The translations under genes were made by a program, and so were the position numbers. This document shows, piece by piece, positions 6,105-15,224 of a stretch of DNA of 64,000 nucleotides. Under the pieces are notes generated by a model. It did no database searches, had not been told where the DNA came from, and saw nothing but the letters and a program-made list of their open reading frames with translations. The DNA is from Escherichia coli (lineage in GTDB: Bacteria > Pseudomonadota > Gammaproteobacteria > Enterobacterales > Enterobacteriaceae), in NCBI RefSeq assembly GCF_013315695.1, contig NZ_CP054353.1. One strand, 5' to 3'. How positions within the stretch are numbered: position 1 is the stretch's first letter; each line of letters opens with the position of its first letter.

Positions 6105-7073
<969 letters not shown>

Positions 7074-9218
7074 TTAAAGTGCACAGGAGACGCAGCCTTC
7101 AATTTCAGTGCCTTCCAGCGCCATCTGACGCAGGCGAATGTAATAGAGCGTTTTGATACCCTTGCGCCAGGCGTAAATCTGCGCTTTGTTGATATCGCGA
7201 GTGGTGGCGGTATCGGGGAAAAACAGCGTCAGCGACAGCCCCTGATCGACATGGCGAGTCGCTTCCGCGTAGGTGTCGATGATCTTTTCTGCGCCGATTT
7301 CGTAAGCGTCCTGATACAGCGCCAGATTTTCGTTAGTCATAAACGGGGCAGGGTAGTAAACGCGTCCTGTTTTGCCCTCTTTGCGTATCTCTACTTTCGC
7401 CACAATCGGATGAATACTCGACGTGGCATGGTTGATATAAGAGATAGAACCGGTTGGCGGCACCGCCTGGAGATTCTGGTTGTATATGCCATAGCGCATC
7501 ACGTCGTCGCGCAGCTGCGCCCACATCTCACGGGTAGGTAACGTAATACCACTACGGGCAAACAGTTCGCCAACTTTCGCCGTTTTCGGCTGCCAGTTAC
7601 TTTGCAGATATTGGCTGAAATATTCACCACTGGCATAGCGTGACTGTTTGAACCCGGCGAAGGTTTCACCGCGTTCGCGCGCCAGCAACATCGAGGTACG
7701 CAGTGCGTGCCAGGTGATGGTATAGAAATAGAGATTGGTGAAATCCAGTGCTTCCGGCGAACCATAAGCGATGCCTTCTCGCGCCAGATAACCGTGTAAA
7801 TTCATCTGCCCCAGACCGATGGCGTGTGAGGCGGCATTTCCGGCTTCGATGGACGGCACGCTGCGGATATGACTCATATCTGACACCGCCGTTAAACCGC
7901 GTACGGCAGTCTCTACCGTGCGGGCAAAGTCGGGGGAATCCATGGTGTGGGCAATATTCAACGACCCTAGATTGCAGGAAATATCATGTCCTGTACGAGC
8001 ATAGTCGAGATTCTCGTCATATTCTGAGGCGCTGTTAACCTGCAAAATTTCTGAGCAGAGATTGCTCATATTTATGCGTCCGGCGATAGGGTTAGCACGG
8101 TTAACCGTGTCTTCATACATGATGTACGGATAGCCAGACTCAAACTGGATCTCTGCCAGTCGCTGGAAGAAATCACGGGCGTTGAGGTATTTTTTGCGAA
8201 TGCGTTCATCGGCAACCAGTTCGTCATAGTGTTCACTGATGGCGACATCGGCAAATGGCTTGCCATAAACTCGCTCTACGTCATAAGGCGAAAACAGCGC
8301 CATCTGCGCATTCTCTTTTGCCAGATGGAAAGTGATATCCGGGATCACCACGCCCAGCGACAGTGTTTTAATGCGGATTTTTTCGTCGGCATTTTCCCGT
8401 TTTGTATCGAGAAAACGCAGAATATCGGGATGATGAGCATGTAAATAGACTGCCCCAGCCCCCTGACGCGCGCCGAGTTGGTTGGCATAGGAAAATGCGT
8501 CTTCCAGCATTTTCATCACCGGAATCACGCCAGAAGATTGATTTTCAATACGTTTAATTGGCGCGCCCGCTTCCCGCAGATTCGACAGCAAAAATGCTAC
8601 GCCGCCGCCGCGTTTCGACAGTTGTAGTGCGGAATTCACTGCCCGGCCAATCGACTCCATATTGTCTTCAATACGCAGCAGAAAACAGGAAACCAGTTCG
8701 CCGCGCTGCTGCTTACCGCAGTTGAGGAATGTTGGCGTGGCTGGCTGAAAGCGTCCTGACAGCATCTCATCAGTGAGCTGCGTCGCCAGTGTTTCATCGC
8801 CTTGTGCCAGCGTCAGCGCCACCATCGTGACGCGATCGGCAAAATCTTCCAGATAACGCTTACCGTCGAATGTCTTCAACGTATAGCTGGTGTAAAACTT
8901 CCATGCTCCGAGGAATGTCTGGAAACGAAAACCGCTGGCGTGTGCGTGGGCAAACAGCGTAATGACAAAATCGCGAGAGTAGCGGTTGAGGACGTTTTCA
9001 TCATAGTAACCTTCGTTGACCAGCCAGTTCAGGCGCTGCTGCTGGCTACTGAAGGCCACACTGTTCGGACGCACATGCGTTGTCATAAAGGCGTCTACTG
9101 CCTGGCGATCTTTATCGAACTGAATGCGACCTGCGCTATCGTAAAGGTTAAGCATCGCATTCAGAGCGTGATAATCCATCGTTTCCTGCGTCAGGCGTTC
9201 TGCGGTTGTCGTTGCCAA
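7074..9218 (-). CDS. nrdE: class Ib ribonucleotide reductase alpha subunit
   Basis: 714-aa ORF; operon order. Confidence 0.9.
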
Positions 9219-9601
9219 AATTCGGTTACTCCTTTACGAACGTTTTCGATATCGCTTTGCGTACCCATGAGTTCAAAACGGTACAGCCACGGCACGCCGC
9301 ATTTCCGGGCAATCACATCTCCGGCGCGGCCATATGCCTCACCAAAGTTGCGATTACCCGAAGCAATAACGCCGCGCAGCAACGCCCGGTTATGCTCGTC
9401 GTTTAAAAAGCGAATGACCTGTCGTGGCACCGCGCCAGCCGTACCGCCGCCGCCGTAAGAGGGCACGATCAGGATGTAAGGCTCGTCTACCTGAATCCGT
9501 TCCCGCTCATTGAGCGGGATGCGCACCGCGGGCAGCCCTAAACGTTCGATAAAACGCTGCGTATTTTCGGAGCTGCTGGAAAAGTAGACGAGCTGGCTCA
9601 T
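9191..9601 (-). CDS. nrdI: flavodoxin-like NrdI
   Basis: 136-aa ORF overlapping nrdE start and nrdH stop. Confidence 0.9.
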
Positions 9602-9843
9602 GCACTGGCCGCGTGTGGCGCTGGATGCAGACGATTGATCATGTCCGGGCGGAAACCAGACCAGCTAAGATCGCCTGCAATCACAACCGGCAACTGACGA
9701 AAGCCCTGAGCACGCAGCGCTTCTGCCGCTTCAGGAACGCGATCGACATTAATCATTTCAAAATCAAAGCCCCGGTTTTCCATCGCCCGTTTGGTGGCGT
9801 GGCACTGAACGCAATCGTTACGAGTGTAAATAGTAATGCGCAT
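9598..9843 (-). CDS. nrdH: glutaredoxin-like protein NrdH
   Basis: 81-aa ORF with CVQC redox motif. Confidence 0.9.
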
Positions 9844-10051
9844 GATTCGTATTTCCGTTTAAGATGAAGATACGGCGCGATGATACGCGTCGGGTTGTCT
9901 CTCTGTTGATACAGAGATACTAGATGTAGTTGAAAAAATATTCAACCACACAAGATATGGGAATTTTAGATTTATTACGCCACCGATGAATGGCTCAACG
10001 GGGTAGGGGATTTTGTGTTTTTTTGCCGGGCGAATACCCGGCATCAAGAAG

Positions 10052-10483
10052 TTACATCCGCATGGAAACGGCCAGACGGTTAAAACAATTCATCAGCCCG
10101 ATGGCAAACGTTAAGTCGCTGATCTCTGCTGCGCTGAAATGCTCAAGCAAAGGCTGATAAACCTCGTCTTCCGCATGGGTTCTGGCAATTTCGGTTACCG
10201 ATTCCGCCCATGCCAGCGCCGCCCGCTCGCGTTCATCAAAATGATGGCTTACGCGCCAACCTGCCAGGGCGTCCAGTTTGTGCTGTGGCACGCCGGATTT
10301 GCGCAATGCTTTGCTGTGCATCTCCAGACAAAATGCGCAGCCGTTGATTTGCGAGACGCGCAAATAAACTAACTCCATCAACGTGGTATCCAGCGTGCTA
10401 TTTTCCAGTGCCGTTTTGGCCTGCACTAGTGCGTTATACACTGCCGGGCTAAGTTCGTAGTAAGGCTGACGTAATGTAGTCAT
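10052..10483 (-). CDS. carboxymuconolactone decarboxylase / AhpD-like family protein
   Basis: 143-aa ORF with CxxC-type motif NGCAFCLEMH; not present at this position in K-12. Confidence 0.65.
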   Translation of the reverse strand: MTTLRQPYYELSPAVYNALVQAKTALENSTLDTTLMELVYLRVSQINGCAFCLEMHSKALRKSGVPQHKLDALAGWRVSHHFDERERAALAWAESVTEIARTHAEDEVYQPLLEHFSAAEISDLTFAIGLMNCFNRLAVSMRM

Positions 10484-10570
10484 ACAGTTTCTCCTCTTAT
10501 TAACGCCCGCAATGTAGCACTATAATGGACTGCTAAAGAGAGCCATAAATTACCTAAAAAAGCAGACCAT

Positions 10571-11905
10571 ATGCCGCGCTATCAGGATATCGCCCGTCAG
10601 TTAAAAACGGCTATTGAGCAAGGGGAACTGAAACCCGGCGCAAGGCTGCCTTCAAGTCGTACCTGGTCGCAGGAGCTGGGGGTGTCTCGTTCCACTGTCG
10701 AAAATGCGTATGCTGAGCTGGTGGCGCAAGGATGGCTGATCAGGCGGGGACAGGCTGGCACATTTGTCAGTGAGCGGATATATCCGCAACAATCTACTGT
10801 ACAAGTTGTAGCTTTTGCCGGTGAAAGTCAGCAACCGTTGCCATTTCAAATGGGATTACCCGCACTCGATCTCTTTCCGCGAGAGCTGTGGGCGCGGGTG
10901 ATGGGGCGTCGCCTTCGTACCCAGACGCGCTTTGATTTGGCGTTAGGCGATGTTTGCGGTGAGGTGGCGTTGCGCGAGGCAATAGTTGATTACTTACGCG
11001 TTTCACGTGGGATTGATTGTCAGCCAGAGCAGGTCTTTATCACTCACGGTTATGCGGCCTCAATAGCTTTAATTCTGCACGCGCTGGCGAAACCGGGAAA
11101 CGGGATGTGGATAGAAGATCCCGGCTTTCCACTGATTCGCCCGATTGTCACTCGCCATGATGTGGAAATTTTGCCTGTGCCGGTTGATGACAATGGACTG
11201 GATATCACAAGCGGAATACAAAATTATCCTGATGCGCGTTTTGCCCTGATAACACCAGCACACCAAAGTCCGTTGGGTGTGGCGCTCTCTTTAGCGCGCA
11301 GGCATCAGATACTGGAATGGGCAGATCGTAGTCAGGCATGGATTATTGAAGATGATTATGACAGTGAGTTTCGCTATCACGGTAAGCCGTTACCGGCGTT
11401 AAAAAGTCTCGACGCACCGCAGCGGGTAATTTATGCCGGAACATTCAGCAAAGCGCTATTTCCTGCATTGCGCTGTGCGTGGCTGGTGGTGCCGGTGAAG
11501 CAAATTGCACAATTCCGCCACCAGGCGTCACTGGCTCCATGTGCGGTACCTGTTCTATGGCAGAACACACTGGCAGACTTTCTTCGCGAGGGGCATTTCT
11601 GGCGGCATCTGAAGAAAATGCGTCAGCATTATGCTCAACGTCGGCAATGGATTGAGCAAGCGTTGACGCAGCAAGGATTTCAGGTTGTGCCGCAGAAAGG
11701 TGGTATCCAGATGGTGATCAGAATGATAGGCGATGATATTGCCCATGCGCGTAAAGCCAATGCTGCAGGCCTTGCGGTGCAGGCACTTAGCGACTGGCGT
11801 ATCCGTTCAAGTGGGGAAGGTGGATTACTGCTTTCGTTTACTAATATCGTTAACGAAGGTATGGCGCGACAGGTAGCACAACAATTACGTAAAGCCTTAA
11901 GCTAA
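10571..11905 (+). CDS. MocR/GabR-type regulator (GntR HTH fused to PLP aminotransferase-like domain)
   Basis: 444-aa ORF; N-terminal GntR-like HTH (SRTWSQELGVSRSTVENAY) and aminotransferase-like body with GTFSKALFP. Confidence 0.75.
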   Translation: MPRYQDIARQLKTAIEQGELKPGARLPSSRTWSQELGVSRSTVENAYAELVAQGWLIRRGQAGTFVSERIYPQQSTVQVVAFAGESQQPLPFQMGLPALDLFPRELWARVMGRRLRTQTRFDLALGDVCGEVALREAIVDYLRVSRGIDCQPEQVFITHGYAASIALILHALAKPGNGMWIEDPGFPLIRPIVTRHDVEILPVPVDDNGLDITSGIQNYPDARFALITPAHQSPLGVALSLARRHQILEWADRSQAWIIEDDYDSEFRYHGKPLPALKSLDAPQRVIYAGTFSKALFPALRCAWLVVPVKQIAQFRHQASLAPCAVPVLWQNTLADFLREGHFWRHLKKMRQHYAQRRQWIEQALTQQGFQVVPQKGGIQMVIRMIGDDIAHARKANAAGLAVQALSDWRIRSSGEGGLLLSFTNIVNEGMARQVAQQLRKALS

Positions 11906-11930
11906 AAAACCCCGAAGCCAGGCTTCGGGG
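11904..11930 (-). terminator. rho-independent terminator hairpin (bidirectional; T-tract on minus strand)
   Basis: ccccgaag/cttcgggg stem flanked by A6 on plus strand, between convergent MocR-like gene and ygaM. Confidence 0.55.
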
Positions 11931-11961
11931 TCAAAGACGCGTATTTATTATCATTTTTGCA

Positions 11962-12291
11962 CTACGATTTGCGCATGCTTAACAGTGCGCCGATAAAAAT
12001 ACCTACCGCAGCTGCTGTACCCACGCTACACCAGGGTCTTTCACGAACAAAAGAATCCGCGCAGCCAACGGCATCGCGCGCGGCTTGCTGGACGCGAGTA
12101 CGACCATGCATTCGCGCTCTGGTTTCTTTCAGTAGAGCCTGCGCTTTACTACGAGCGGCTTCGGCTTCCCCTTTGGCGTCGCTGCCCCAGGACTTCAATA
12201 CAGATTCGAGGCTGTCAGCTAATTGATTGACATCATTCTGGATATCCTGCACGCCATCATCAACGTCGTTGCGGTTCGGTCGGTTAAACAT
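11962..12291 (-). CDS. ygaM: ElaB/YqjD-family (DUF883) membrane-anchored ribosome-associated protein
   Basis: 109-aa product from MFNRPN; C-terminal TM helix; synteny. Confidence 0.8.
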   Translation of the reverse strand: MFNRPNRNDVDDGVQDIQNDVNQLADSLESVLKSWGSDAKGEAEAARSKAQALLKETRARMHGRTRVQQAARDAVGCADSFVRERPWCSVGTAAAVGIFIGALLSMRKS

Positions 12292-12442
12292 ATGATCCCC
12301 CATTAGAATTCGATGTAATTTTCAGTGTAGACCATAATTTTCTTAACTGAGGTTCATCGCGGCTTTATGGACTTTTCTGAAAGCGTTGTGAATGCGCAAT
12401 CAGGTAAGGTAGGCCCGCGGTTGATAATAACGAGGATCAAAT

Positions 12443-12787
12443 ATGTATTTACGACCAGACGAGGTGGCGCGCGTACTTGAAAAAGTCGGTTTTACTGTCG
12501 ATGTGGTAACCCAGAAAGCGTATGGTTACCGCCGTGGGGAAAATTATGTCTATGTTAATCGCGAAGCGCGAATGGGACGTACCGCCCTGGTGATTCATCC
12601 AACATTAAAAGAACGTAGTTCAACACTGGCTGAACCCGCTTCCGATATTAAAACTTGCGATCATTACCAGCAATTTCCGCTCTATTTAGCGGGTGAACGT
12701 CATGAGCATTACGGTATCCCACATGGCTTTAGTTCGCGTGTTGCGCTTGAACGTTATTTGAATGGCTTATTTGGCGAAGCCAGTTAA
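12443..12787 (+). CDS. ygaC: DUF2002 family protein
   Basis: 114-aa ORF; synteny. Confidence 0.8.
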
Positions 12788-12823
12788 AGACGCGACTGGC
12801 GATGCCAGTCGCGAAAAGAAGGG

Positions 12824-13273
12824 TCAGGCTTTTACCTGCTGGTAACGGCTGACTTTAAACAGTCGGCGGCAATAATCGAGGAAGTAACCATAAACCGCCC
12901 CCATCAACATCGAAACAACGATGTTTGAACTGACCGCCGCCATAATCTGATGCCAGTCTGCGCCCACCACTAACAAGATCGCCACATACACCGGTGACTG
13001 GAACGTCACATAAGCCATGATATCCGCCAGATTTTTTATCCAGCCCGACGGGCTAACTTTGCGTGCTGCGCGCATAAACAGATCGCGGTACATACCGTAT
13101 GGCCATGCAATTAAGATGTTCACCGGAATCGCTACCAATCTGGAATAAAAAGACTGTTCGAAGCTCATTCCGGAGAGGAAAACTTCAATACACATGTTCA
13201 CGACAGAACAGTAAACAACCATCGCGAACGTATCTGCAACTGCATGACGCAAGCGTGACTGCGGTGAGAACAT
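12824..13273 (-). CDS. alaE: L-alanine exporter
   Basis: 149-aa membrane ORF; synteny. Confidence 0.85.
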
Positions 13274-13939
13274 GCTAATGCTCCTTAATAAAAGCGTAAT
13301 GGGATGTTAATGGAGGTGAAAGCAGTGGATCTCATTGCCATCTGCATTTTCGCATAGCGTATATCGCTGGCTATGACTAATCAATTAGTGAAAAATTTTT
13401 ATTTAATCTGTTTTTGTAGATAAAATATTCCGTAACGGCGCGTTTTTTGTACATTGTGGATTTTTACATGCCGATATGATTTATTTTTAATTAAATCAAT
13501 TGGATATGTGTTTACCTTTATTTTCACTCATGAAGGTTTGGGGGGAGGTAACGCTATAAGCGTAGAGAATTCGGTGTATGTCGTGACCGGGTCATTTTCA
13601 GCATTTTTTATGCCAGATAACGTACATTGACAGCAGAAAGCACCAGTGAGTGATGTTTTCTTTTATTCTGTTGAGTTGCATTTTTATTCACTTTGGTTTT
13701 GTCAGGCTTGCGGAATTAGCGAGCAGAGAGCGCCGCTCTGTTCACCAATAACCGAAATTACTCATCAAAATGGCTAATATATAATCTTGAAATTATTCTG
13801 AGAGTTTCAGAAAATAACAGCTGAAATAATCTCGTGCAGGACTGTAAATAGATTAAATTTTGTGGAAATATAATAAGTGATCGCTTACACTACGCGACGA
13901 AATACTTTTTTGTTTTGGCGTTAAAAGGTTTTCTTTATT

Positions 13940-14344
13940 ATGTCCGTAATGTTACAAAGTTTAAATAACATTCGCACTCTCCGTGCGATGGCTCGCGAAT
14001 TCTCCATTGACGTTCTTGAAGAAATGCTCGAAAAATTCAGGGTTGTCACTAAAGAAAGACGTGAAGAAGAAGAACAGCAGCAGCGTGAGCTGGCAGAGCG
14101 CCAGGAAAAAATTAGCACCTGGCTGGAGCTGATGAAAGCTGACGGAATTAACCCGGAAGAGTTATTGGGTAATAACTCTGCGGCTGCCCCACGCGCTGGT
14201 AAAAAACGCCAGCCGCGTCCGGCGAAATATAAATTCACCGATGTTAACGGTGAAACTAAAACCTGGACCGGTCAGGGCCGTACACCGAAGCCAATCGCTC
14301 AGGCGCTGGCAGAAGGTAAATCTCTCGACGATTTCCTGATCTAA
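13940..14344 (+). CDS. stpA: H-NS paralog DNA-binding protein StpA
   Basis: 134-aa ORF with H-NS-like coiled coil and C-terminal [12 protein letters not shown]-binding motif. Confidence 0.9.
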
Positions 14345-14390
14345 TTACTGAGGCCGGATGCCGCCGCTATGGCGCGTCCGGCGTCTCTTC

Positions 14391-14915
14391 TCAAGCTCGT
14401 TGGTTCCACGGCATCTTATCTAACAACCTTGCCATCCCACAAAAACCGCTAATTCCTGCAAACAGTAACCCGGCACCAACAAAGCCGCTTAATAAGAAGA
14501 AACCGCTATTTACGGTATAACCCAGTATAACGCCGATTAATATTAAACCACCCGCAGCGATCTGCACCTGGCGCATTAACGGCAAGGGTTGAGATTTATT
14601 TACCGCTACTGGTAATCCTGCTTTTTTCCAGCCATCAATCCCATCTTCGAGTAAAAAGATTTCTGCGGGGGCGGCAATCGCTGCTAATTTATCGGCGTTA
14701 TTACTGGTGCGTTTACCTGCCTGGCAGTGGAATATAATTTGCTCGCGACGTGATTTAGGCGGAAGACCTGACTGTTCCAGTACGGATAATGGAGCCAGAT
14801 CTGCTTCAGGAATATGTTCACGAAGATATTCATCAGCGTCACGAATATCGATTAACTTTGCGCCGCGTGCGATTAATTCTTGTGCATCATGCGGCGAAAT
14901 GGTTGTCAAAGCCAT
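14391..14915 (-). CDS. ygaP: membrane-anchored rhodanese (thiosulfate sulfurtransferase)
   Basis: 174-aa ORF; rhodanese active-site CQAGKR; C-terminal TM helices. Confidence 0.85.
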
Positions 14916-14924
14916 AGTGACTCC

Positions 14925-15224
14925 TTACGGACAATAGACATTTTTCAGGGTGGCGATAATGGCATTTACCGCCTCATTTTTAATGGAATATAGAATGCGT
15001 TGGGCATCCCGTTGGCTGTCGATAAGCCCTTCGTCCCGCATACGAGCGAGATGCTGTGATGTCGCAGAGGCACTCAGTCCGGTAATGCGAGTCAGCTCTC
15101 CCGCGCTGGTGCCGGGGGAACCGCTAAGCATGCACAGAATCAGCAACCGTTTAGGGTGGCTCATTGCTTTCAATAAGGCCGCTGCCTGTTCGGCACTGGC
15201 CTGTAATTGCGCGAGTTCAGTCAT
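14925..15224 (-). CDS. ygaV: ArsR-family transcriptional regulator
   Basis: 99-aa ORF with ArsR-like HTH; operon with ygaP. Confidence 0.85.
   Translation of the reverse strand: MTELAQLQASAEQAAALLKAMSHPKRLLILCMLSGSPGTSAGELTRITGLSASATSQHLARMRDEGLIDSQRDAQRILYSIKNEAVNAIIATLKNVYCP

What the first reader, a model, noticed from the sequence alone, without database searches (positions are those of the whole stretch)
9844..11961. Strain-variable two-gene insert (AhpD-like + MocR-type regulator) between nrdH and ygaM
As I recall, K-12 has nrdH directly next to ygaM. Here a divergent pair is present: a CMD/AhpD-like protein and a GntR-aminotransferase fusion regulator. This looks like a small metabolic or redox module with its own regulator.
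Basis: partly seen in the sequence, partly recalled or inferred. Interest (0 to 1): 0.3.

Follow-up and report, generated by a model that had tools for sequence, protein, structure and literature searches.

The report
Ancestral regulator–redox gene pair K-12 lost
The two genes between nrdH and ygaM are real and missing from K-12, but they are an old, vertically inherited enterobacterial pair (a vitamin-B6-dependent MocR regulator plus the small AhpD-like thiol enzyme it probably controls) that most E. coli lost in one clean deletion, so the finding is ordinary and the "insert" reading is backwards.

Summary
Observation confirmed. An AhpD-like/CMD gene (10052-10483, minus strand) and a MocR-type regulator gene (10571-11905, plus strand) lie back to back between nrdH and ygaM. 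K-12 lacks both.

The "insert" reading is wrong in polarity. The pair occupies the same nrdH/ygaM slot in E. albertii, a cryptic Escherichia clade, Citrobacter, Cedecea, Pluralibacter, Shimwellia, Rahnella and others. No repeats, mobility genes or GC anomaly flank it. Of 5426 complete E. coli genomes, 1387 carry the pair. Another 4032 carry one shared deletion junction, including K-12 and ST131. That points to a single ancestral deletion of almost exactly the two coding sequences.

Both genes are under purifying selection (dN/dS 0.03-0.10). The 87-bp spacer holds a tripartite operator, ATGG-N13-GCCA-N21-CCAT. It overlaps two back-to-back -10 boxes and keeps fixed spacing from E. coli to Vibrio, Pseudomonas and Burkholderiales.

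The regulator retains the four PLP-binding residues. The enzyme retains E37, C49, C52 and H56 of the AhpD proton relay.

A 2016 in-silico study already lists this regulog (group Spro_3719, including Salmonella STM2803, with a COG2128 target). The effector and substrate are unknown. The newer PGAP name "pdxR" is probably an over-annotation. Low interest; already known.

The parts
10052..10483 (-). AhpD-like / CMD-family gene, 143 aa. It has a CxxCxxxH centre with E37, C49, F51, C52 and H56.
   Evidence: ORF. Pfam PF02627 E=3.5e-21. TIGR00778 at 54.9 bits against a cutoff of 27.8. It is 41% identical over 141 aa to P. aeruginosa PA0269 (PDB 2ijc/2o4d/7xw1, E=4e-31). dN/dS is 0.03-0.07.
10571..11905 (+). 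MocR-subfamily transcription factor, 444 aa. N-terminal GntR winged helix (residues about 4-66) and a fold-type-I aminotransferase-like domain. PLP-binding quartet D261, S293, K294, R301.
   Evidence: Pfam. NCBIfam. Best solved relative is B. clausii PdxR 7PQ9 (E=3.3e-62), followed by GabR. Quartet residues were read from the alignment using residue numbers given in PMC10450172 and positions. dN/dS is 0.07-0.10.
10484..10570 (.). 87-bp divergent control region shared by the two genes.
   Evidence: 100% identical between the window and O157 although the mocR genes are only 89% identical. Blocks are conserved across 24 enterobacterial sequences.
10525..10532 (+). Operator box A (ATGGACTG), inverted relative to boxes B and C. 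It starts inside the TATAAT hexamer.
   Evidence: Nearly invariant. Recurs as ATGG(A/C)(C/T)TA in distant orthologues. Part of the pattern tested.
10539..10546 (+). Operator box B (AGAGCCAT). Its GCCA core starts 17 bp after the ATGG of box A.
10563..10570 (+). Operator box C (CAGACCAT), abutting the mocR ATG. Its CCAT lies 24 bp downstream of the CCAT of box B. A conserved A6 tract (10556-10561) precedes it.
   Evidence: The ST80-type allele loses the last base of this box.
10521..10526 (+). Perfect -10 hexamer TATAAT, the candidate mocR promoter. On the opposite strand TATAGT (10524 to 10519) is the candidate -10 for the CMD gene.
   Evidence: Read directly from the sequence. CACTATAATGG or CACTATGATGG is conserved in nearly all 24 enterobacterial sequences (Rahnella and Klebsiella sp. 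BIGb0407 differ). The simple promoter scan did not call it, because no -35 at 16-18 bp reaches its threshold. The promoter role is inferred.
10491..10496 (-). Shine-Dalgarno sequence GAGGAG of the CMD gene.
   Evidence: Read from the sequence. The CTCCTC block is conserved.
10025..10042 (.). GC-rich hairpin (GCCGGG-CGAATA-CCCGGC) just downstream of the CMD stop. On the CMD strand it is followed by A7, not U, so it is not a canonical intrinsic terminator.
   Evidence: Coordinates. Conserved in O157, E. albertii and the cryptic clade. Only its right half survives, diverged, in K-12.
11908..11932 (-). Intrinsic terminator of ygaM (11-bp stem followed by a T run). It starts 3 bp after the mocR stop codon and is retained in K-12.
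   Evidence: Terminator scan. Junction alignment.
10052..11905 (.). Segment absent from K-12-type and ST131-type genomes. It corresponds to the two coding sequences, stop codon to stop codon, within a few bp. About 16 bp of the left hairpin arm (roughly 10017-10032) is also missing.
   Evidence: With 10052-11905 removed, the window aligns end to end with the 247-bp K-12 spacer apart from a 16-bp gap. The junction is shared by 4032 genomes, including ST131 and SE15.
9954..9997 (.). 44-bp patch upstream of nrdH that is about 50% diverged between pair-carrying and pair-less haplotypes.
   Evidence: The window, O157, the cryptic clade and E. albertii share one version. K-12 and ST131 share another.

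Best explanation
This is an ancestral enterobacterial two-gene regulon, not an insertion.

**Shown**
- A MocR-subfamily, PLP-binding transcription factor and an AhpD-like CxxC protein are transcribed divergently from an 87-bp spacer.
- The pair has been inherited vertically at the nrdH/ygaM locus across Escherichia and many other Enterobacteriaceae.
- One deletion of about 1.87 kb removed almost exactly the two coding sequences. About 74% of sequenced E. coli now carry that deletion, including K-12 and ST131.
- A tripartite operator (box A inverted, boxes B and C direct, fixed 17-bp and 24-bp offsets, 46-bp span, A-tract between B and C) lies over the two back-to-back -10 elements and runs up to the mocR start codon.

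**Inferred**
- A MocR dimer binds this operator in the manner of PdxR and GabR.
- Boxes B and C lie in the mocR leader, so binding represses mocR.
- Boxes A and B lie in the -13 to -34 region of a CMD promoter that has no good -35. When the PLP site is loaded with its effector, the regulator switches between box combinations and activates the CMD gene.
- The effector is probably an amine that forms an external aldimine, or PLP itself.
- The CMD product is most likely a hexameric thiol-disulfide oxidoreductase or weak peroxidase of the PA0269 type, acting on a reactive oxidant or electrophile. Orthologous operons elsewhere add a GNAT acetyltransferase, an AcpD/NQO-type flavoprotein or a pyridine-nucleotide disulfide reductase.
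- The effector and substrate are not known.
For: **Gene identities:**

**Synteny**
- nrdI-nrdH-CMD-mocR-ygaM/ygaC-alaE order is seen in 19 of 22 enterobacterial loci, from E. albertii to Rahnella.
- MocR and CMD identities track NrdI identity (rho 0.78 and 0.85).
- Salmonella STM2803/STM2804 lie at the same place near stpA.

**Not mobile**
- GC 0.50-0.55, like the flanks.
- No bounding repeats.
- Always one chromosomal copy.

**Single deletion**
- The junction GATTTTTGTGATTCACCAGGCAAAAAG|AAACCCCGAAG is identical in the K-12 and ST131 types.
- 4032 genomes with the junction plus 1387 with the pair account for 5419 of 5426 genomes.

**Selection:** dN/dS is 0.03-0.10.

**Operator**
- Footprint across 24 enterobacterial sequences.
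- Same boxes and spacing in Hafnia, Budvicia, Vibrio, Colwellia, Pseudomonas and Burkholderiales.
- The pattern occurs once in the 64-kb window (expected 0.01). It also occurs once in each of 34 other loci, always just upstream of mocR.

**PLP site:** D261, S293, K294 and R301 match PdxR D276, S308, K309 and R316.

**Comparable systems**
- The PdxR operator also has two direct motifs and one inverted motif in 48 bp with an A/T tract, and PLP switches which motifs are bound (PMC10450172).
- The three-box layout of two direct plus one inverted is the commonest MocR motif type (PMC5320631).
- The published regulog Spro_3719 has COG2128 as its target.
- Accessory genes in orthologous operons: GNAT, Flavodoxin_2, Pyr_redox_2.
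- PA0269 is hexameric and shows weak Cys-dependent H2O2 reduction (PMC3141380).
Against: - No experiment on this pair was found. STM2804 is described as having 'no known function' and was used as a marker-insertion site.
- The activator and autorepressor logic is inferred only from box positions. The simple promoter scan did not call either promoter.
- Relay residue 51 is Phe rather than Tyr or His, and even PA0269 has only weak peroxidase activity. The true substrate may not be a peroxide.
- No AhpC-type partner is adjacent.
- About 8% of carriers have lost the regulator's N-terminal half, and most E. coli have lost the whole pair. The function is therefore dispensable in many niches.
Confidence: 0.75

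Rival explanations
1. One reading: the pair is a horizontally acquired, strain-specific insert (a small islet) that entered this lineage between nrdH and ygaM.
For: It is absent from K-12 and from 74% of complete E. coli genomes. The mocR gene has two alleles about 11% apart within E. coli, which shows that recombination acts on this locus.
Against: - The pair occupies the same slot in E. albertii, a cryptic Escherichia clade, Citrobacter, Pseudocitrobacter, Cedecea, Pluralibacter, Shimwellia, Pseudescherichia and Rahnella.
- Its identity to those species tracks that of the neighbouring genes.
- There is no integrase, no flanking repeats and no GC shift.
- The pair-less state has a single junction that retains a diverged remnant of the hairpin lying just beyond the CMD stop.
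Confidence: 0.04
2. The regulator is a genuine PdxR, as newer PGAP annotations name it. It would sense PLP and control vitamin B6 biosynthesis or salvage genes, and the CMD gene would be only a neighbour.
For: The protein scores 407 bits against the NCBIfam PdxR 'equivalog' model, whose cutoff is 320. Its closest solved structure is B. clausii PdxR. The PLP quartet is intact. The operator layout resembles that of PdxR.
Against: - No pdx gene is adjacent; the divergent partner is the CMD gene.
- The only operator match in the 64-kb window is in its own spacer.
- Across 43 of 57 distant loci the conserved partner is again a CMD gene, with GNAT, AcpD or Pyr_redox_2 genes and never pdxST.
- Suvorova & Rodionov's supplementary table places the enterobacterial orthologues in a group named only by locus tag (Spro_3719), with a COG2128 target and no PdxR/PdxW/PdxQ label.
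- The rhizopine-MocR model also scores 354 bits, so the HMM score does not discriminate well.
- From general knowledge: E. coli makes PLP by the PdxA/PdxJ route and has no pdxST.
Confidence: 0.1
3. The CMD protein is a true gamma-carboxymuconolactone decarboxylase or another non-redox enzyme of an amine or aromatic catabolic route, and the MocR protein senses that pathway's amino substrate.
For: The Pfam family is named for the decarboxylase. MocR regulators often control catabolism of amino compounds such as GABA, taurine and ectoine.
Against: - The protein has the CxxCxxxH plus Glu relay that PMC3141380 reports as absent from gamma-CMD members.
- No pca or other catabolic genes flank it in the window.
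- Its companions in other taxa are redox flavoproteins and a GNAT, not catabolic enzymes.
- It scores far below the cutoffs of every specific NCBIfam equivalog.
Confidence: 0.07

Closest known systems
In-silico MocR regulog 'Spro_3719 - Enterobacteriales' (Suvorova & Rodionov 2016, PMC5320631). Members: Salmonella STM2803, Citrobacter koseri CKO_04020, Klebsiella pneumoniae, Serratia Spro_3719, Pectobacterium ECA2654. Predicted target: COG2128.
   Same: Same regulator type, same divergent AhpD/CMD (COG2128) target and same host family. STM2804 lies about 5 kb from stpA, as the pair does here. The Pseudomonas member PFL_2191 has the COG2128 + AcpD + GNAT operon that I also found in L024.
   Different: That study used K-12 as its E. 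coli genome, and K-12 lacks the pair (2 MocR regulators only). E. coli was therefore not a member of the regulog. I did not retrieve that group's published motif, so identity with my boxes is not verified. No experimental work exists.
PdxR of Bacillus clausii (PDB 7PQ9; PMC10450172)
   Same: Closest solved full-length homologue (E=3.3e-62). The Asp/Ser/Lys/Arg PLP quartet is the same. It is transcribed divergently from its target. Its operator has two direct motifs and one inverted motif over about 48 bp with an A/T tract, overlapping both promoters.
   Different: The PdxR target is pdxST; here the target is an AhpD-like gene. The box sequences differ. PLP as anti-activator has been shown for PdxR and is untested here.
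GabR of Bacillus subtilis (PDB 4N0B)
   Same: MocR architecture (E=1.6e-54). From general knowledge of GabR: it represses its own gene and activates the divergent gabT, and its effector forms an external aldimine with PLP.
   Different: From general knowledge: the GabR operator is two direct repeats, and its target is a GABA catabolic operon.
PA0269 of Pseudomonas aeruginosa (PDB 2IJC/2O4D/7XW1; PMC3141380) with its regulator PA0268
   Same: 41% identical, and aligned over 141 of 143 residues. Four of the five relay residues are conserved. PA0268 is a MocR regulator predicted to control a COG2128 gene.
   Different: Residue 51 is Phe, against Tyr50 in PA0269. PA0268 belongs to a different MocR orthologous group from Spro_3719. 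The hexameric state and peroxidase activity are not tested for the E. coli protein.
AhpD of Mycobacterium tuberculosis
   Same: A CxxC centre with a Glu/His proton relay, and a match to the TIGR00778 core domain.
   Different: The score against the full AhpD model is only 30.9 bits, with a cutoff of 192. The active-site helices are at the N-terminus rather than the C-terminus. No adjacent ahpC.

Membership tests
MocR/GabR subfamily of GntR transcription factors | N-terminal GntR-type winged helix-turn-helix domain | tested here: met
   PF00392 E=1.4e-17, residues 4-66.
MocR/GabR subfamily of GntR transcription factors | C-terminal fold-type-I aminotransferase-like domain | tested here: met
   PF00155 E=5.1e-26, residues 126-386. 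Full-length alignment to PdxR 7PQ9 and GabR 4N0B.
MocR/GabR subfamily of GntR transcription factors | PLP-binding quartet: Schiff-base Lys, phosphate-binding Ser and Arg, and Asp facing the pyridine N | tested here: met
   K294, S293, R301 and D261 align with PdxR K309, S308, R316 and D276. Actual PLP binding was not tested.
MocR/GabR subfamily of GntR transcription factors | Operator of 2-4 short repeats with a TGG/TGT core and fixed spacing, close to its own gene | tested here: met
   Boxes A, B and C all contain CCAT/ATGG. Offsets of 17 and 24 bp are conserved across classes of Proteobacteria. The motif typology is described.
PdxR (vitamin B6 biosynthesis regulator; the name PGAP gives it) | Score above the NCBIfam NF052282 equivalog cutoff | tested here: met
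   407 bits against a cutoff of 320.
PdxR (vitamin B6 biosynthesis regulator; the name PGAP gives it) | Adjacent to, and operator upstream of, pdxST, pdxK, pdxU or pdxO genes | tested here: not met
   The neighbour is a CMD gene in the window and in 43 of 57 distant loci. None of the ten accessory genes scanned from nine non-enteric loci was a pdx gene. The only operator match in the 64-kb window is local.
PdxR (vitamin B6 biosynthesis regulator; the name PGAP gives it) | PLP acts as the effector that changes DNA binding | not testable with these tools
   Needs EMSA or reporter assays with the apo and holo protein.
AhpD-like branch of the CMD family (PF02627 / TIGR00778) | CMD fold with the AhpD core domain | tested here: met
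   PF02627 E=3.5e-21. TIGR00778 at 54.9 bits against a cutoff of 27.8.
AhpD-like branch of the CMD family (PF02627 / TIGR00778) | Five-residue proton relay: Glu, Cys-x-(His/Tyr)-Cys, His | tested here: inconclusive
   E37, C49, C52 and H56 are present. The middle residue is F51 instead of Tyr or His. That is four of five.
AhpD-like branch of the CMD family (PF02627 / TIGR00778) | Works with an adjacent AhpC peroxiredoxin (AhpD in the strict sense) | tested here: not met
   No ahpC next to it. The TIGR00777 AhpD subfamily score is 30.9 bits against a cutoff of 192.
AhpD-like branch of the CMD family (PF02627 / TIGR00778) | Hexameric ring; Cys-dependent reductase or peroxidase activity | not tested
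   Known for PA0269 only. No structure prediction or assay was run here.
Gamma-carboxymuconolactone decarboxylase (PcaC) | Lacks the CxxC relay and sits among protocatechuate-pathway genes | tested here: not met
   The CxxC relay is present. PMC3141380 reports it as absent from gamma-CMD members. No pca genes are nearby.
Genomic islet / mobile insertion | Flanking direct or inverted repeats, mobility genes, compositional anomaly, absence from outgroups | tested here: not met
   No bounding repeats. No extra ORFs. GC 0.50-0.55. Present at the same site in about 20 outgroup species.

The most novel reading that the evidence does not exclude
The AhpD-like gene lies 208 bp upstream of nrdHIEF and points the same way. 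The hairpin after it is followed by A's on the coding strand, so it is not a canonical terminator. In pair-carrying strains, MocR-controlled transcription might therefore read into, or interfere with, the nrdHIEF promoter. That would couple the Mn-dependent ribonucleotide reductase and its NrdH redoxin to an amine- or PLP-sensing regulator. The deletion haplotype also carries a replaced 44-bp patch just distal to the NrdR-box-like sequence (9954-9997), so it would have rewired nrdHIEF control in K-12-type strains. Nothing I ran excludes this, and nothing supports it beyond geometry and the conserved nrdH-CMD adjacency.
Probability: 0.07. Interest if true: 0.45.

Novelty: already known. Interest (0 to 1): 0.15.

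Why it matters
The finding matters little on its own. There are three practical points.

1. K-12 is the derived state at this locus. Work on K-12 cannot see a third MocR regulator and an AhpD-like thiol protein that a quarter of E. coli retain under purifying selection, including O157:H7 and many non-ST131 B2 strains.
2. The "pdxR" name that PGAP now propagates to these genes is probably wrong, and could mislead vitamin B6 pathway reconstructions.
3. The sharply defined 46-bp operator, conserved from E. coli to Pseudomonas and Burkholderiales, gives a ready handle for finding the unknown effector of a widespread MocR group, for example with a reporter or EMSA.

Tried and rejected
- **Mobile-element reading.** I looked for flanking repeats, a GC shift and extra ORFs. 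None was found, so I rejected it.
- **RNA elements.** An Rfam scan of 9000-13500 at E<=1 found nothing.
- **Promoter scan.** The scan did not call the intergenic promoters, because no -35 at 16-18 bp passes its rule. The TATAAT/TATAGT assignment therefore rests on conservation only.
- **Literature on 'MocR' plus 'carboxymuconolactone decarboxylase'.** No papers.
- **Search for STM2803/STM2804.** It returned only a paper that inserted a cat marker in STM2804, described as a gene of no known function.
- **Search for O157 locus tags.** It found 'z3974' among 16 proteins retained on a salicylidene-acylhydrazide affinity resin, alongside Tpx and WrbA (PMC3191033). My mapping of Z3974 to this CMD gene is from memory, and the supplementary table is not held. 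I do not use it as evidence.
- **12-nt perfect inverted repeat.** One arm is in the operator spacer (10532-10543) and the other inside mocR (11284-11295). About 0.2 such pairs are expected by chance in 2.7 kb, so I treat it as chance.
- **Correction.** I first estimated the ST80-type internal deletion at 581 bp. Direct reconstruction corrected it to 589 bp, window 10570-11158.
- **Not run.** Structure prediction, fold search and the large protein searches. Solved homologues at E=4e-31 and E=3e-62 already settle the folds.
Full report
**1. What is there**

ORF listing of 7000-15000 gives the following order:

| Gene | Coordinates | Strand |
|---|---|---|
| nrdF | 6105-7064 | - |
| nrdE | 7074-9218 | - |
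| nrdI | 9191-9601 | - |
| nrdH | 9598-9843 | - |
| 143-aa ORF | 10052-10483 | - |
| 444-aa ORF | 10571-11905 | + |
| ygaM | 11962-12303 | - |
| ygaC | 12443-12787 | + |
| alaE | 12824-13273 | - |
| stpA | 13940-14344 | + |

- The 143-aa protein is a CMD-family protein (PF02627, E=3.5e-21). It carries the AhpD core domain (TIGR00778, 54.9 bits against a cutoff of 27.8).
- The 444-aa protein is a GntR winged helix fused to a class I/II aminotransferase domain, which makes it a MocR-subfamily regulator.
- GC content across the pair (0.50-0.55) is like that of the flanks.
- No Rfam family matches the region.
- No repeats bound the pair.

**2. Strain variability**

- The 3.1-kb region matches 5421 of 5426 complete E. 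coli genomes, but only 1387 cover the pair.
- The pair alone is found in 1387 genomes, always once and always on the chromosome. Identity is >=99% in 1007 genomes, 95-99% in 15, and 90-95% in 365, the last group including O157:H7.
- A K-12-lineage genome (L001) has nrdH and ygaM 247 bp apart with nothing annotated between them. BW25113 matches that spacer at 100%.

**3. Polarity: a deletion in K-12, not an insertion here**

A scan of one genome per species with the MocR protein returned 79 loci. I searched them by tblastn with the window's NrdI, NrdH, CMD, MocR, YgaM, YgaC and AlaE proteins.

- The order nrdI-nrdH-CMD-mocR-ygaM-ygaC-alaE appears in E. albertii, a cryptic-clade 'E. coli' (L022), Pseudocitrobacter, Cedecea, Pseudescherichia vulneris, Shimwellia, Pluralibacter, several 'Enterobacter' species and Rahnella.
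- In three Citrobacter species the same order appears without a detectable ygaM.
- Across 19 such loci, MocR and CMD identity to the window track NrdI identity (Spearman 0.78 and 0.85). Vertical descent predicts this.
- The literature adds Salmonella. STM2803 is in the same MocR orthologous group with a COG2128 target, and STM2804 lies about 5 kb from stpA.

*Junction anatomy.*
- With 10052-11905 removed, the window aligns end to end with the K-12 spacer apart from a 16-bp gap. The 10052-11905 segment runs from the CMD stop codon to the mocR stop codon.
- K-12 keeps a diverged remnant (ATTCACCAGGCAAAAAG) of the right arm of the hairpin that follows the CMD stop.
- The same junction is present in 4032 genomes. 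Together with the 1387 pair carriers, that accounts for 5419 of 5426.
- The junction comes in two sub-alleles. One is the K-12 type. The other (560 genomes at >=99%) is ST131, including EC958, JJ1886 and SE15.
- The pair is therefore polymorphic even within phylogroup B2. The identical junction argues for one deletion event whose allele has since spread.

**4. Are the genes functional where kept?**

Yes.
- Pairwise dN/dS among the window, O157, E. albertii and the cryptic clade is 0.07-0.10 for mocR and 0.03-0.07 for the CMD gene. All four copies are intact.
- A minority allele has a 589-bp internal deletion (window 10570-11158). It removes the last base of box C, the start codon and codons 1-196, so the whole DNA-binding domain is lost.
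- 111 of the 1387 carriers cover less than 80% of the pair. The four of these that were sampled, and the ST80 strain (L003), show this allele.

**5. The control region**

I aligned the spacer from 24 enterobacterial sequences whose MocR proteins are only 47-91% identical to the window's. Three conserved blocks stand out:

| Element | Sequence | Window coordinates |
|---|---|---|
| -10 hexamer overlapping box A | CACTATAATGGACTG | TATAAT 10521-10526; box A 10525-10532 |
| Box B | AGAGCCAT | 10539-10546 |
| A6 tract then box C | AAAAAAGCAGACCAT | A6 10556-10561; box C 10563-10570 |

- Box C abuts the mocR ATG.
- The CMD Shine-Dalgarno sequence is also conserved.
- The three boxes share a CCAT/ATGG core. 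Box A is inverted relative to B and C.
- The same three boxes, with the same 17-bp and 24-bp offsets, recur upstream of orthologues in Hafnia, Budvicia, Vibrio, Colwellia, Pseudomonas, Collimonas, Burkholderia and others. An unbiased 6-mer enrichment had pointed to the same words.
- The pattern ATGG-N13-GCCA-N21-CCAT occurs once in the 64-kb window (expected 0.01).
- It also occurs once in each of 34 other loci, always on the mocR strand just upstream of mocR.
- The spacer is 100% identical between the window and O157 although their mocR genes are only 89% identical.

*Inferred promoter geometry.*
- TATAAT on the plus strand would start mocR transcription near 10533. That puts boxes B and C in the leader.
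- The overlapping TATAGT on the minus strand would start CMD transcription near 10511.
- This is the layout expected for autorepression combined with activation of the divergent gene.
- It matches the PdxR system: two direct motifs and one inverted motif over 48 bp, an A/T tract, overlap of both promoters, and PLP switching which motifs are bound (PMC10450172).
- Two direct plus one inverted is the commonest MocR motif type (PMC5320631).
- The simple promoter scan did not call these promoters. The promoter assignment is an inference.

**6. The proteins**

*MocR.*
- The best solved relatives are B. clausii PdxR 7PQ9 (E=3.3e-62) and B. subtilis GabR (E=1.6e-54).
- D261, S293, K294 and R301 align with the PdxR quartet D276, S308, K309 and R316. 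PLP binding is therefore likely.
- The protein passes NCBI's PdxR equivalog cutoff (407 bits against 320), and newer PGAP runs name it pdxR.
- I consider that name unsupported, for three reasons:
  - there are no pdx genes next to it here, and none among the accessory genes scanned in nine of the 57 non-enteric loci;
  - the only operator match in the window is local;
  - the published classification puts its orthologues in a group named only by locus tag, with a COG2128 target and no PdxR/PdxW/PdxQ label.

*CMD protein.*
- It is 41% identical over 141 aa to PA0269 (E=4e-31).
- PA0269 is a hexameric AhpD-like protein with weak, Cys-dependent H2O2 reduction (PMC3141380).
- E37, C49, C52 and H56 match four of the five relay residues. 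The fifth is F51, where PA0269 has Tyr and M. tuberculosis AhpD has His.
- It is not AhpD in the strict sense. There is no adjacent ahpC, and the score is 30.9 bits against a cutoff of 192.
- It is not a PcaC-type decarboxylase either, because the CxxC relay is present.

**7. Context elsewhere**

- 43 of 57 non-enteric loci have a CMD homologue within the fetched flank of up to 4 kb. It is either divergent, immediately downstream, or separated by one or two genes.
- The additional operon members found are a GNAT acetyltransferase, a Flavodoxin_2 (AcpD/NQO-type) flavoprotein and a pyridine-nucleotide disulfide oxidoreductase.
- This matches published regulon contents such as PFL_2191: COG2128 + COG1182 + PF00583.
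- It supports a redox or detoxification role but does not identify the substrate.

**8. Comparison with what is known, and novelty**

- The pair is annotated in RefSeq.
- Its orthologues form a published in-silico regulog: Spro_3719 in Enterobacteriales, and the related PA0268 group (PMC5320631).
- K-12, that study's E. coli representative, has only two MocR regulators.
- No experimental characterisation was found.
- I therefore rate it as already known in kind and in membership, with function still open.

**9. Verdict**

- Interest is low (0.15).
- Confidence differs by claim. The structural and evolutionary claims are about 0.9 confident. The regulatory logic and enzyme chemistry are about 0.5 and are marked as inference. 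The effector and substrate are unknown.

Noticed in passing
window 9954-9997 (upstream of nrdH); L001 and L084 equivalents: A 44-bp patch just distal to an NrdR-box-like sequence in the nrdHIEF upstream region is about 50% diverged between pair-carrying haplotypes (window, O157, cryptic clade, E. albertii) and pair-less haplotypes (K-12, ST131). The deletion allele therefore also carries a replaced piece of nrdHIEF upstream DNA. Its origin and any effect on Fur or NrdR control are unknown.
   Followed up: partly
window 10571-11905 versus L002 2672-4006 (O157:H7): mocR has two deeply diverged alleles within E. coli: 89.1% DNA identity and dS 0.43. The adjacent CMD gene is 97.7% identical (dS 0.087) and the spacer is 100% identical. 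The 5' half of the O157 allele is closer (93-98%) to the cryptic-clade allele (L022). This suggests a mosaic or recombinant gene.
   Followed up: partly
L003 2662-3417 (ST80 strain); window 10570-11158: 111 of the 1387 carriers cover less than 80% of the pair. The four sampled, and the ST80 strain L003, have a 589-bp internal deletion. It removes the mocR start codon, the DNA-binding domain and the last base of operator box C, and leaves the CMD gene intact. This is a natural regulator knockout.
   Followed up: partly
L084 and hits H131-H154 (ST131: EC958, JJ1886, SE15): ST131 and SE15 (phylogroup B2) lack the pair and have the same deletion junction as K-12. Their flanks are about 99% identical to this pair-carrying window. 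The deletion allele is therefore polymorphic within B2 and has probably moved by recombination.
   Followed up: partly
L002 4007-4155 (O157:H7, between mocR and ygaM): O157 has 149 bp here against 56 bp in the window. The extra sequence looks REP-like (…CCTGATGCGCTATG…CAGGCCTGTAGGCGGACAAGGCG…), and the sequence just downstream of the ygaM stop also differs.
   Followed up: no
RefSeq annotations under hits H2, H3, H31, H36 and others: Newer PGAP runs name the regulator 'pdxR: MocR-like pyridoxine biosynthesis transcription factor PdxR'. Older runs say 'PLP-dependent aminotransferase family protein'. The NF052282 equivalog cutoff (320 bits) appears permissive, since this protein also scores 354 bits on the rhizopine MocR model.
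   Followed up: yes
window 10025-10042: The GC-rich hairpin after the CMD stop is followed by A7 on the coding strand and preceded by T7 on the other strand. It is not a canonical terminator for either direction. The CMD gene is co-oriented with nrdHIEF 208 bp downstream, so read-through is conceivable.
   Followed up: no
window 10532-10543 and 11284-11295: A perfect 12-nt inverted repeat (GCTAAAGAGAGC / GCTCTCTTTAGC) links the operator spacer between boxes A and B with a site inside the mocR coding region. It is probably chance, since about 0.2 such pairs are expected.
   Followed up: no
L085 (strain P276M, NZ_CP044293.1): Nearly every gene at this locus (nrdE, nrdI, nrdH, ygaM, alaE, stpA) is annotated as frameshifted or partial. 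This looks like an assembly-quality problem rather than biology.
   Followed up: no
window 13200-13950: A markedly AT-rich stretch (GC 0.36-0.39) lies upstream of stpA, between alaE and stpA.
   Followed up: no
L029, L033, L061 and similar loci (Pseudomonas, Janthinobacterium): Some MocR orthologues keep an operator-like upstream sequence (…ATGGCTTA…AGGGCCAA…) but have no CMD homologue in the flank. This is consistent with published regulogs whose targets are only AcpD and GNAT genes.
   Followed up: no
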